Shown here one piece after another: positions 55,386 through 55,504 of a stretch of 64,000 nt of DNA. The DNA is taken from positions 64,001-128,000 of IMG/VR virus record IMGVR_UViG_3300046786_000293; one strand, given 5' to 3'. Position numbers and translations under genes: made by a program. The DNA comes from a virus (Duplodnaviria > Caudoviricetes). A model generated the notes under the pieces. It saw only the letters and a list, made by a program, of their open reading frames with translations. It was not told the origin of the DNA and did no database searches. Each line of letters starts with the position of its first letter. The first letter of the stretch is position 1.

Positions 55386-55504
55386 AACAGGATACAGTTT
55401 TAAGTGCTCTACCAAATGAGCTAATCAGGCTTGAAGCCTAATGTTGGATTCGAACCAACTACCACTCGCTTATAAGGCGAAAAGGGGTTTGCTGTATGTA
55501 TCCT
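55386..55504 (-). ncRNA. CAGCAA-module RNA E containing a circularly permuted tRNA-like domain (YrlA-like topology)
   Basis: Order: stem5'-CAGCAA, anticodon arm (UAU), T arm, loop-closed acceptor stem, D arm, stem3'-GUU. Confidence 0.8.

What the first reader, a model, noticed from the sequence alone, without database searches (positions are those of the whole stretch)
55386..55504. Circularly permuted tRNA-like RNA closed by the CAGCAA module, the topological mirror of the tRNA-Asp fusion
Seen (5'-3'): AGGAUAC-AUA-CAGCAA-ACCCCUU; anticodon arm UUCGC-CUUAUAA-GCGAG; UGGUA; T arm GUUGG-UUCGAAU-CCAAC; acceptor AUUAGGC-(UUCAA)-GCCUGAU closed by a loop; UA; D arm GCUC-AUUUGGUA-GAGC; A-CUUAAAACU-GUAUCCU-GUU. 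The junction sequences (A-CUUA..AAA after the D arm; CAGCAA-NNN-CUU before the anticodon stem) match those in 51500-51617, so the two RNAs are circular permutations of one design. Established: YrlA RNAs have T arm before D arm and a closed acceptor, but there the Ro stem replaces the anticodon arm. Here a full anticodon arm is retained. Inference: an unchargeable tRNA mimic (nuclease decoy or ribosome/synthetase ligand), or a permuted tRNA precursor matured by the phage ligase.
Basis: partly seen in the sequence, partly recalled or inferred. Interest (0 to 1): 0.85.

Follow-up and report, generated by a model that had tools for sequence, protein, structure and literature searches.

The report
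Phage Y-RNA-like permuted tRNA mimic
This is a real small-RNA gene in a giant freshwater phage: a complete tRNA with rotated ends, mounted on a short conserved "handle" that travels with a Ro60-like ring protein, making it a divergent, uncatalogued phage version of the known Ro60/Y-RNA particle.

Summary
Window 55385-55507 (- strand) folds as described: terminal stem, CAGCAA, anticodon-like hairpin, T arm, closed 7-bp acceptor, D arm.

It belongs to a large phage RNA family that I collected from viral contigs. More than 100 non-redundant members show strong covariation in every helix and in the tRNA 15:48 tertiary pair.

The handle is a terminal stem, (U)ACAGCAA, and a 3' CUGU(U). It co-occurs with a DUF2828/DUF7788 protein, found in 35/46 element-bearing records against 3/48 controls. 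That protein's predicted fold matches Ro60.

The best reading is a YrlA-like Y RNA of a divergent phage Ro60. It fails YrlA membership: 33 bits against a 69-bit cut-off, and no GNCGAA motif.

About 30% of members, this one included, keep a 5-bp anticodon arm with a 7-nt loop. Covariation shows the arm is composite. Pairs 27:43 and 28:42 come from the strand after the D arm, so the handle sits at 28/29.

The mirror form, a full tRNA with a closed handle at 28/29, recurs in other phages.

Anticodons drift, and some are Ser/Leu triplets without a long variable arm. This favours a mimic over a decoder.

Expression and protein binding are not shown. The scan has found this family before in at least 60 other genomes.

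The parts
55497..55505 (-). Handle, 5' strand of the terminal stem (U-AGGAUAC-A). It pairs with 55388-55396.
   Evidence: MFE fold. All six modelled stem pairs covary in 46 relatives.
55489..55496 (-). Handle motif UA-CAGCAA in the internal loop, directly after the 5' stem strand.
   Evidence: 94/124 pattern hits with CAGCAA have a closed acceptor, against about 8/109 without it. In protein-anchored loci not selected for the motif it reads C(A/C)GCA(A/U).
55482..55488 (-). Single-stranded linker ACCCCUU.
   Evidence: Variable in length and sequence across relatives.
55465..55481 (-). Anticodon-like hairpin (UU)CGC-CUUAUAA-GCG(AG). The loop is 55470-55476 with U33, UAU, A37 and A38. G55465 and A55466 (positions 43 and 42) most likely pair with C55404 and U55403.
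   Evidence: Hairpin pairs covary (GC/CG/UA/AU). A composite 5-bp arm with a 7-nt loop occurs in 31/100 members, against 2.0 in shuffles.
55460..55464 (-). Variable loop UGGUA. A55460 is position 48.
   Evidence: The 15:48 pair covaries in 103 members: G:C 47, A:U 36, U:A 6 (this element is U:A). Chi-square p = 3e-26.
55443..55459 (-). T arm GUUGG-UUCGAAU-CCAAC.
   Evidence: 100% of cells paired, and 4 of 5 pairs covary.
55424..55442 (-). Closed acceptor stem-loop AUUAGGC-UUCAA-GCCUGAU (7 bp). Predicted RNase P site 5' of G55430.
   Evidence: 97.8% of cells paired, and all 7 pairs covary. The RNase P inference rests on M. smegmatis YrlA (PMC4201824).
55406..55423 (-). U8-A9 and D arm GCUC-AUUUGGUA-GAGC, with A14, U15 and G18-G19.
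   Evidence: U8 and A14 are invariant in 103 members. The D stem was fixed by my search pattern, so its invariance there says nothing.
55402..55405 (-). A26 and CUU (27-29), the strand that closes the base of the anticodon stem.
   Evidence: 27:43 is paired in 40/46 and 28:42 in 45/46, with four pair types. Both are paired in 28/28 of the arm-keeping set.
55397..55401 (-). A-rich 3' linker AAAAC.
   Evidence: A-rich in most relatives.
55385..55396 (-). Handle, 3' strand UGUAUCCU plus conserved GUU(U) tail.
   Evidence: YC-UGUU is nearly invariant in the independent sample. The next tRNA starts 7 nt downstream at 55378.
44894..46342 (-). Ro60-like protein gene (DUF2828 + DUF7788/vWA, PHROG 850 'RNA-binding protein'). 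It is the inferred partner, 9 kb downstream on the same strand.
   Evidence: Pfam and PHROG hits. AF2 model with pLDDT 86.6. The top 12 PDB fold matches are all Ro60. The MIDAS DxSGS motif is conserved.
51503..51617 (-). Mirror form: a full tRNA-Asp(GUC) with the same handle closed by a GUUA loop and inserted at 28/29.
   Evidence: Rfam tRNA 44 bits over 115 nt. Sequence. The same arrangement occurs in other phages, including another tRNA-Asp(GUC) in L270.
57178..57238 (-). Sibling handle RNA without a tRNA domain. It has the same AGGAUAC/GUAUCCU stem.
   Evidence: R1 33.6 bits. Fold.
53544..53610 (-). Sibling handle RNA whose cargo is only an anticodon-like hairpin (loop CUUUUAA).
   Evidence: R1 29.5 bits. 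Fold.
46340..46782 (-). Three tandem handle RNAs (about 60, 200 and 175 nt) directly upstream of the Ro60-like gene.
   Evidence: R1 28.9 bits for 46340-46399. Folds with terminal stem plus CAGCA(A/G) plus CUGUU/CAGUU.

Best explanation
The element is a Y-RNA-type noncoding RNA of the phage. It has two parts.

The first is a handle: a 7-9 bp stem formed by the RNA's own 5' and 3' ends, the unpaired motif (U)ACAGCAA right after the 5' strand, and a 3' CUGU(U) tail. I infer this is the binding site for the phage's Ro60-like ring protein (DUF2828/DUF7788, window 44894-46342).

The second is the cargo, a complete L-shaped tRNA body in permuted order: anticodon hairpin, variable loop, T arm, closed acceptor, D arm. 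The handle emerges from the 5' strand of the anticodon stem between positions 28 and 29.

The RNA is probably cut out of the polycistronic tRNA transcript by the ordinary tRNA-processing enzymes. It lies 5 nt after the CCA of tRNA-Trp and 7 nt before the next tRNA. RNase P may also open it at the 7-bp acceptor.

By analogy with Ro60/Y-RNA particles, the tRNA-shaped cargo would tether or gate the ring protein towards tRNA-recognising factors. Candidates are repair enzymes such as the neighbouring Rnl1-type ligase and phosphoesterases, host nucleases, or PNPase. Alternatively it could act as a nuclease-resistant decoy during infection.

Shown here: the structure, family membership, tRNA-like tertiary constraint and co-occurrence with the protein. 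Inferred: binding, processing and effect.
For: - Fold and z-score.
- Covariation in the outer stem, junction, T stem and acceptor, and in the composite anticodon arm.
- Levitt pair covariation, p = 3e-26.
- In-silico rotation gives a canonical tRNA here and in 30/31 arm-keeping relatives.
- The only Rfam match is the tRNA-like domain of YrlA (33.4 bits, model positions 23-87).
- The protein occurs in 35/46 element-bearing viral records, and in 12/12 of those at least 90% complete. It occurs in 3/48 tRNA-array controls (0/5 complete).
- In loci anchored on the protein alone, the RNA lies on the same strand. It is almost always upstream, from 0 to about 9 kb away and often 28-650 nt.
- The protein model matches Ro60 full length: 2i91, 1yvr, 2nvo and phage phiLo 9l5y, E down to 2e-8.
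- Seven handle RNAs with different cargos sit in this island, three of them directly upstream of the gene.
- Neighbouring genes are an Rnl1-like ligase, a phosphoesterase and a DSP-type phosphatase. This parallels the Salmonella rsr-yrlBA-rtcBA operon (PMC7790460).
- Phage Ro60 has been shown to bind phage Y-like RNAs in phiLo (PMC12135203).
- Anticodon triplets drift: 17 kinds in 30 members, 7 of them Ser/Leu without a long arm. U33, A37 and A38 stay conserved.
Against: - No binding and no expression are shown. Metatranscriptome contigs cover the neighbouring stretch but hardly the element.
- In this genome the element is 9 kb from the protein gene, not adjacent.
- The handle lacks the GNCGAA motif that Ro60 proteins recognise, and the protein is not matched by Pfam TROVE. 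Partnership therefore rests on co-occurrence and fold only.
- Conservation of an anticodon-loop signature, and NCCA in 20% of relatives, hint at tRNA-type processing or use that a pure scaffold would not need.
Confidence: 0.75

Rival explanations
1. It is a permuted tRNA gene. The transcript is processed at the acceptor loop by RNase P, 3' trimming and CCA addition. The handle is excised and the ends are sealed by the phage Rnl1-type ligase, giving a working tRNA-Ile(UAU).
For: - Rotation gives a flawless tRNA-Ile(UAU) cloverleaf.
- The acceptor is 7 bp. NCCA starts the acceptor loop in 20/103 relatives, against 1.2 expected.
- An RNA ligase is encoded 6 kb away.
- The mirror tRNA-Asp carries the handle like an intron.
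Against: - This element has no CCA; the loop is UUCAA.
- Many family members have no anticodon loop.
- 7/30 rotated members bear Ser/Leu anticodons with a 5-nt variable loop, so they could not be charged as such.
- NCCA does not correlate with having an anticodon arm (Fisher p = 0.79).
- The handle has no bulge-helix-bulge geometry and no known endonuclease.
- The handle tracks a Ro60-like protein, not a splicing enzyme.
- A separate UAU tRNA lies next door, at 55287-55378.
Confidence: 0.07
2. It is a stand-alone decoy for host anticodon nucleases or other tRNA-targeting defences. It works without the Ro60-like protein, and the handle only stabilises the RNA ends.
For: - An anticodon-loop signature (U33, A37, A38) is kept in about 30% of members.
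- A sibling RNA at 53544-53610 carries only a tRNA-Lys-like CUUUUAA hairpin.
- The RNA sits in a tRNA-repair gene neighbourhood.
Against: - Triplets are very diverse, not focused on known nuclease targets.
- Handle sequence motifs (CAGCAA, CUGU) are conserved far beyond what end-pairing needs.
- There is tight co-occurrence and synteny with the protein.
Confidence: 0.1
3. The handle is an intron-like or ribozyme-like mobile insertion that targets position 28/29 of tRNA genes. The permuted form is a by-product of recombination between such copies.
For: - The insertion point 28/29 is fixed in both topologies and in several phages.
- There are multiple copies per genome.
Against: - There is no match to any Rfam ribozyme or intron family.
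- Handle RNAs exist with non-tRNA cargos.
- The permuted form is itself conserved, with covariation and a maintained tertiary pair. That is not expected of a by-product.
Confidence: 0.04
4. It is a chance or degenerate arrangement: two adjacent tRNA remnants read as one ('dimeric tRNA' artefact).
For: The model R1 and the YrlA model do give weak hits on adjacent tRNA pairs in the array (20-40 bits).
Against: - This element scores 105.7 bits.
- The two acceptor strands pair with each other across a 5-nt loop.
- More than 100 relatives keep that pairing through compensatory changes.
Confidence: 0.01

Closest known systems
YrlA (Y RNA-like A, Rfam RF02553) with bacterial and phage Ro60/Rsr (Chen et al. 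2014, PMC4201824)
   Same: - The terminal 5'/3' stem carries the protein-binding module.
- The effector domain is a tRNA mimic in the order T arm - closed acceptor - D arm.
- The Levitt 15:48 pair covaries.
- It is encoded upstream of, and on the same strand as, a Ro60-type ring protein, and is processed from a longer precursor.
- It is linked to RNA-ligase genes.
   Different: - It scores 33 bits against a 69-bit cut-off, and only the tRNA-like part aligns.
- The handle motif is (U)ACAGCAA plus 3' CUGU(U), not GNCGAA(N)G.
- The partner protein is DUF2828/DUF7788, not Pfam TROVE.
- An anticodon hairpin with a 7-nt loop is kept, so the junction is three-way.
- The acceptor is a full 7 bp.
Thermus phage phiLo Ro60 with Yrl1/Yrl2 (PMC12135203; PDB 9KOP, 9L5Y)
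   Same: - It is a phage-encoded Ro60-fold protein with Y-like RNAs encoded upstream.
- The RNAs have a stem - internal loop with motif - stem layout.
- The phiLo structure is among the fold matches of the protein here.
   Different: The phiLo RNAs carry the CGAA motif. Going by the passages I read, they have no tRNA-like domain. The protein is a canonical TROVE.
Bas63 gp130, a Ro60-like counter of the Ppl defence in a Felixounavirus (bioRxiv 10.1101/2024.10.10.617714)
   Same: - The protein is Ro60-like by structure and sits directly upstream of a tRNA stretch.
- The authors guessed that some of those 'tRNA genes' are Y RNAs.
- Felixounaviruses encode homologues at about 39% identity to the protein here.
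   Different: No RNA partner was defined there. I did not verify that gp130 itself is the homologue. The host and phage type differ.
Class I RNAs of dictyostelid amoebae (PMC7919456; search pattern GTTGRCCTTACAGCAA...GTCAACTG in PMC5054030)
   Same: The handle is the same. A short covarying stem joins the 5' and 3' ends. An unpaired motif ending in UACAGCAA follows directly after the 5' strand. The middle is variable. The 3' end is CUGU, whose C pairs with the 5' G.
   Different: These are eukaryotic RNAs of 42-65 nt with no tRNA cargo. The known binder is an RRM protein (Rnp1A/CIBP). A link to a DUF2828 protein is untested, so the resemblance could be convergent.
Permuted tRNA genes of Cyanidioschyzon merolae and split tRNAs of Nanoarchaeum (from general knowledge; not read here)
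   Same: The 3' half is encoded before the 5' half, and the acceptor strands are joined by a short spacer.
   Different: Those mature through a bulge-helix-bulge motif and the archaeal/eukaryal splicing endonuclease into working tRNAs. Here there is no such motif, a protein-linked handle, and drifting anticodons.

Membership tests
YrlA (Rfam RF02553) | Score at or above the curated gathering threshold (69 bits) | tested here: not met
   33.4 bits, E 1e-5, model positions 23-87 only. Relatives score 32-39 bits.
YrlA (Rfam RF02553) | tRNA-like domain in the order T arm, closed acceptor-like stem-loop, D arm, with tRNA invariant nucleotides and a covarying 15:48 pair | tested here: met
   U8, A14, G18G19 and the UUCGAAU T loop are present. 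15:48 is U:A here and covaries in the family.
YrlA (Rfam RF02553) | Ro60-binding module with the GNCGAA(N0-1)G motif in the 5' strand of the terminal helix (PMC4201824) | tested here: not met
   The terminal helix is present, but the motif is UA-CAGCAA.
YrlA (Rfam RF02553) | Encoded next to a Ro60 (TROVE) orthologue | tested here: inconclusive
   A Ro60-fold protein is present 9 kb away on the same strand, and directly adjacent in many relatives. It is DUF2828-type, and the genome has no Pfam TROVE match.
YrlA (Rfam RF02553) | Bound by the Ro60 protein in vivo | not testable with these tools
   Needs immunoprecipitation or EMSA.
Phage 'stem-CAGCAA-CUGU handle' RNAs linked to DUF2828 proteins (uncatalogued family defined here by model R1) | Terminal stem, (U)ACAGCAA after the 5' strand, 3' YCUGU(U) | tested here: met
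   105.7 bits to R1. All three features are present.
Phage 'stem-CAGCAA-CUGU handle' RNAs linked to DUF2828 proteins (uncatalogued family defined here by model R1) | Genome encodes the DUF2828/DUF7788 Ro60-like protein on the same strand | tested here: met
   Family-wide, 35/46 against 3/48.
Permuted tRNA gene (matures to a functional tRNA) | 3' half upstream of 5' half; rotation restores a canonical cloverleaf | tested here: met
   ARAGORN calls tRNA-Ile(UAU), 76 nt, on the rotated sequence.
Permuted tRNA gene (matures to a functional tRNA) | Termini form a bulge-helix-bulge or other recognised splice substrate | tested here: not met
   There is a 9-bp uninterrupted stem and then an asymmetric loop, 15 nt on the 5' side and 5 nt on the 3' side. 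No Rfam intron or ribozyme match.
Permuted tRNA gene (matures to a functional tRNA) | Anticodon and identity elements under decoding selection across relatives | tested here: not met
   17 different triplets in 30 members. Seven are Ser/Leu triplets with a short variable loop. Many members lack the loop altogether.
Permuted tRNA gene (matures to a functional tRNA) | Mature linear aminoacylated tRNA detectable | not testable with these tools
   Only assembled contigs of RNA runs were available.
Ro60/TROVE proteins (for the partner protein) | HEAT-repeat ring plus C-terminal vWA domain with MIDAS motif | tested here: met
   AF2 model with pLDDT 86.6 and pTM 0.86. The top 12 PDB hits are all Ro60, TM 0.5-0.6. 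DxSGS is invariant.
Ro60/TROVE proteins (for the partner protein) | Sequence match to Pfam TROVE (PF05731) | tested here: not met
   No hit in the genome at E <= 1. The Pfam hits are DUF2828 and DUF7788.

The most novel reading that the evidence does not exclude
The 'stem-UACAGCAA...CUGU' handle is the recognition element of an ancient ribonucleoprotein, distinct from classical Ro60/Y RNA and built on DUF2828 proteins. It would span phages of many bacterial phyla and reach eukaryotes, since Dictyostelium Class I RNAs carry the same handle and the papers that mention DUF2828 concern plants and a tardigrade.

Within that system, the arm-keeping permuted tRNAs and the handle-bearing full tRNAs would be genuine tRNA-processing substrates: cut by RNase P, CCA-tailed, possibly charged. 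They would physically couple the ring protein to the tRNA repair or translation machinery during phage-host conflict.
Probability: 0.25. Interest if true: 0.85.

Novelty: new variant of a known kind. Interest (0 to 1): 0.62.

Why it matters
Ro60/Y-RNA particles are a classic RNA quality-control system. Their phage versions are only now being studied.

This element shows that a second, very widespread phage lineage of Ro60-shaped proteins has its own RNA partners. The protein occurs in 710 GenBank phage records and more than 555 viral contigs. These RNAs are hidden among tRNA genes and absent from Rfam. Their handle is different, and their cargo can be a complete tRNA in either of two topologies.

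That names concrete RNA ligands for a protein family member already reported to counter a bacterial defence. It also gives a testable function for DUF2828.

The fact that about a third of members keep a full anticodon arm, and a fifth encode NCCA, raises a further question. Some Y-like RNAs may be processed, or even used, like tRNAs.

The shared handle with amoebal Class I RNAs, whose protein biology is unresolved, makes that old question directly testable.

Tried and rejected
- A first viral-contig scan used the wrong spacer (26 N instead of 22). It mostly returned adjacent tRNAs, though it served as a control.
- The 340-aa ORF inside the tRNA array has no viral relatives.
- Nucleotide search of GenBank phages found only tRNA-level similarity.
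- phmmer of the protein against PDB sequences found nothing. Only the fold search did.
- RNAalifold on the raw MAFFT alignment missed the anticodon hairpin and junction helix. I had to test these with explicit structures.
- Public RNA runs are kept as contigs only. The element is barely covered, so expression could not be judged. One 'joint', 55396>55488 in an RNA run, is most simply a sibling or relative handle RNA with shorter cargo.
- I found no paper linking DUF2828 to phage RNA in the library. Burroughs & Aravind 2016 could not be opened.
- AlphaFold-DB cluster hits hide organisms, so the eukaryotic reach of the protein family was not checked. The protein atlas showed only viral clusters.
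- I rejected the dimeric-tRNA artefact, the ribozyme/intron reading and the functional permuted tRNA reading (see rivals).
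Full report
**Context.** The window is bases 64001-128000 of a 338.5-kb virus record, 97% complete by CheckV. DNA runs that hold it are freshwater metagenomes. The - strand of 47.5-62.6 kb carries 39 tRNA genes.

The finding lies between tRNA-Trp (55510-55583) and an odd long-arm tRNA with anticodon UAU (55287-55378). 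It is 5 nt after the CCA of the first and 7 nt before the second.

RNAfold returns the same arms: a 9-bp terminal stem, hairpin UUCGC-CUUAUAA-GCGAG, T arm, 7-bp closed acceptor and D arm. The energy is -36.5 kcal/mol against -23.9 +/- 2.9 for shuffles, z = -4.3.

Rfam gives only a sub-threshold match to YrlA. It scores 33.4 bits against a cut-off of 69 and covers only model positions 23-87, the tRNA-like domain.

The hexamer CAGCAA alone is at chance frequency in the window. Its meaning had to come from comparison with relatives.

**A family.** I scanned IMG/VR contigs for CAGCAA-N25-55-T loop-N18-32-D arm.

In 94 of 124 matches, the two strands between the T arm and D arm pair with each other at 6-7 of 7 positions. 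In a control pattern without CAGCAA, about 8 of 109 do so perfectly; the rest are neighbouring tRNAs.

Aligned by eye and by MAFFT, members share this layout:
- 5' (U)A(A/G)G stem
- 1-4 nt, then CAGCAA
- a linker, then the tRNA-like body
- an A-rich linker
- the complementary stem, then (C)UGU(U)

On 46 members, 94.9% of cells pair, against 37-44% when partners are slid. The covariation score is 0.83 against 0.10-0.18. Every pair of the outer stem, the junction helix and the acceptor shows compensatory change, as do four of five T-stem pairs. The D stem was fixed by my pattern, so its invariance says nothing.

Model R1, built from this alignment, scores the window element at 105.7 bits. It is the only full copy in the genome.

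R1 found 110 matches (103 distinct) in the pattern-derived loci, often two or three per locus.

**Tertiary constraint.** In the 103 distinct members, positions 15 and 48 read G:C 47, A:U 36 and U:A 6. Chi-square gives p = 3e-26. The window element has the rarer U15:A48.

U8 and A14 are invariant in these members. G46 is present in 93/103 and U47 in 89/103.

The body is therefore under selection to fold as an L-shaped tRNA. Chen et al. used the same argument for YrlA (PMC4201824).

**The anticodon arm.** This holds, with one correction.

In 31 of 100 members there is a 5-bp stem closed by a 7-nt loop immediately before the variable loop. Shuffled controls give 2.0 on average and 7 at most. The loop has U33 in 28/31, A37 in 25/31 and A38 in 29/31.

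The commonest build (18 of 31) is two pairs, 27:43 and 28:42, made by the nucleotides that follow the D arm, plus three pairs made by the hairpin.

On a 28-member arm-keeping alignment, those two junction pairs are formed in 28/28 with three to five pair types each. On the unselected 46-member set, the junction pairs are formed in 40 and 45 of 46.

The handle therefore leaves the anticodon stem between 28 and 29, making a three-way junction. In the window element both pairings are possible (C55404-G55465 and U55403-A55466, or U55481/U55480). Family evidence favours the former.

A further 23 members have a junction stem of at least 4 bp and no hairpin, the YrlA-like layout.

**How complete the tRNA is.** I opened the acceptor, removed the handle and appended CCA. 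ARAGORN then calls a canonical 76-nt tRNA-Ile(UAU).

The same operation gives a tRNA call in 30 of 31 arm-keeping relatives, with 17 different anticodons. Seven are Ser or Leu triplets on bodies with a 5-nt variable loop. In bacteria, Ser and Leu tRNAs carry a long variable arm (general knowledge).

The triplet therefore drifts while the loop geometry is kept. That argues for mimicry rather than decoding.

Separately, 20 of 103 members begin the acceptor loop with NCCA, against 1.2 expected and 6 at most in 1000 shuffles. This is independent of having an anticodon arm (Fisher p = 0.79). The window element has UUCAA and no CCA.

M. smegmatis YrlA has a 7-bp acceptor. It is cut by RNase P and CCA-tailed in vivo, and stays bound to Rsr as two halves (PMC4201824). 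The same fate is a reasonable prediction here, so 'unchargeable' is not established.

**The mirror form.** tRNA-Asp(GUC) at 51503-51617 reads: D arm, A26, CUU, AUAAAAG, GUGACUCU, GUUA, AGAGUAC, GUU, CAGCAA, UUUCUUA, UUCC, AUGUCAA, GGAAG.

This is the same handle with its stem closed by a loop that begins GU. Those are the nucleotides that form the conserved 3' tail in the open form. The handle is inserted at the same place in the anticodon stem.

A scan of all fetched loci for such closed handles found further full tRNAs built this way: L270 (again tRNA-Asp GUC), L144 (two), L147, L180 (two), L182 (two) and L227. The two topologies are therefore recurrent family traits, not a peculiarity of this genome.

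**The partner protein.** The 482-aa product of 44894-46342 (- strand) matches DUF2828 and DUF7788 and PHROG 850, 'RNA-binding protein'. Neither it nor anything else in the genome matches Pfam TROVE.

An AlphaFold2 model from 24 homologues has pLDDT 86.6 and pTM 0.86. Its 12 best PDB matches are all Ro60:
- Xenopus 2i91, 1yvr and 1yvp
- human 9nen, 9nf8 and others
- D. radiodurans 2nvo
- Thermus phage phiLo 9kop and 9l5y

E-values run from 2e-8 to 3e-5 with TM 0.5-0.6. vWA-only hits follow. The MIDAS DxSGS motif is invariant.

Homologues occur in 35 of 46 viral records that hold the RNA, and in 12 of 12 of those at least 90% complete. They occur in 3 of 48 tRNA-array records without a pattern match, and in 0 of 5 complete ones.

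Starting from the protein alone, at least 555 viral contigs encode a relative. In the 78 loci searched, all R1 matches lie on the gene's strand. Nearly all of the strong ones lie upstream, from directly adjacent (28 nt in L285, L294 and L295) to about 9 kb.

In that sample, which was not chosen for the motif, the hexamer reads C(A/C)GCA(A/U) and the 3' end YC-UGUU.

In the window itself, three handle RNAs sit directly upstream of the gene (46340-46782). Two short ones lie in the tRNA array: 53544-53610, whose only cargo is a CUUUUAA hairpin, and 57178-57238.

tblastn finds the protein in 710 GenBank phage records. These include Felixounaviruses, Aeromonas Aeh1, Vibrio, Listeria, Staphylococcus and Campylobacter phages. 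They also include mycobacteriophages, where it is annotated 'Ro-like RNA binding protein'.

**Gene neighbourhood.** An Rnl1-type RNA ligase (48562-49470), a phosphoesterase (50129-50671) and a DSP-type phosphatase (50671-51177) lie between the protein gene and the element. This recalls the Salmonella rsr-yrlBA-rtcBA repair operon (PMC7790460). It also fits the remark that some jumbo phages add a ROT/TROVE protein 'with a tRNA-like partner' to their RNA-repair set (PMC7824862).

**What is known.**
- YrlA-type RNAs next to Ro60 in bacteria and phages (PMC4201824).
- phiLo Ro60 binding two phage Y-like RNAs and host PNPase (PMC12135203).
- Bas63 gp130, Ro60-like by structure, countering the Ppl defence. 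Its authors guessed that some adjacent 'tRNA genes' are Y RNAs.

None of these defines this handle or this RNA family, and Rfam 15 has no model for it.

Earlier notes of this scan describe the same family in at least 60 other genomes and point to dictyostelid Class I RNAs. I checked that lead in the literature.

Class I RNAs have a short covarying 5'/3' stem and an 11-nt unpaired motif after the 5' strand. The published search pattern is GTTGRCCTTACAGCAA...GTCAACTG. The 3' end is CUGU, whose C pairs with the 5' G.

The handle is thus the same in outline and in its most conserved letters. Whether that reflects common descent is open.

**Expression.** Only assembled contigs of public runs could be laid. 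One freshwater metatranscriptome has an identical 403-nt contig over 54974-55374, but it hardly covers the element. A contig joining 55396 to 55488 is best read as a shorter sibling or relative's handle RNA. Expression is therefore not shown.

**Verdict.** The structural reading is supported with the correction on the composite arm.

The most likely identity is a Y-RNA-type tRNA mimic that partners a divergent phage Ro60-like protein (confidence 0.75). It works like YrlA but is not a member of that family.

The permuted pre-tRNA reading is unlikely (0.07).

The element is a new variant of a known kind. Its interest lies in three things: the size and hidden nature of the family, the retained anticodon arm and NCCA features, and the two tRNA topologies sharing one handle.

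Noticed in passing
window 55287-55378 (-): A 92-nt tRNA with anticodon loop CUUAUAA (UAU), a long variable arm and an irregular D region. ARAGORN calls it Ile(tat). Rfam's best match is tRNA-Sec at 29.5 bits, below threshold. It is 79% similar to an unannotated stretch of Synechococcus phage S-SRM01. It shares its anticodon loop sequence with the permuted element next to it.
   Followed up: no
window 53544-53610 (-): A handle RNA whose only cargo is an anticodon-like hairpin, UUAGA-CUUUUAA-UCUAA (tRNA-Lys-like loop). It looks like a minimal version of the arm-keeping design.
   Followed up: partly
window 46400-46782 (-): Two larger handle RNAs (about 200 and 175 nt) with highly structured, non-tRNA cargos lie directly upstream of the Ro60-like gene. 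One has CAGCAG in place of CAGCAA, and one ends CCAGUU in place of CCUGUU.
   Followed up: partly
loci L141, L152, L184, L192 (viral contigs): Some phages carry three tRNA-like handle RNAs within one locus, so the cargo type is multi-copy elsewhere although it is single here.
   Followed up: no
rotated family members: Seven of 30 arm-keeping members have Ser or Leu anticodons on bodies with a 5-nt variable loop. One reads AUC, an anticodon rarely used by real tRNAs.
   Followed up: partly
window 55396 / 55488, RNA run X4: A metatranscriptome contig joins the 3' stem strand to the base just after CAGCAA, skipping the 91-nt tRNA body. The letters between are unknown. It could be a relative's short handle RNA or a deletion variant.
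   Followed up: no
window 47567-62564 (-): There are 39 tRNA genes on one strand, interspersed with a ligase, phosphoesterases and a radical-SAM gene (59319-60854). Duplicate isoacceptors include Met x3, Leu(UAA) x2, Gln(UUG) x2, Glu(UUC) x2, Ala(UGC) x2, Pro(UGG) x2 and Asn(GUU) x2.
   Followed up: no
L015 9144-9527 (345-kb viral contig): A sub-threshold full-length match to the cspA thermoregulator (55 bits, cut-off 78) lies in another jumbo-phage contig that also has a closed-acceptor tRNA-like element.
   Followed up: no
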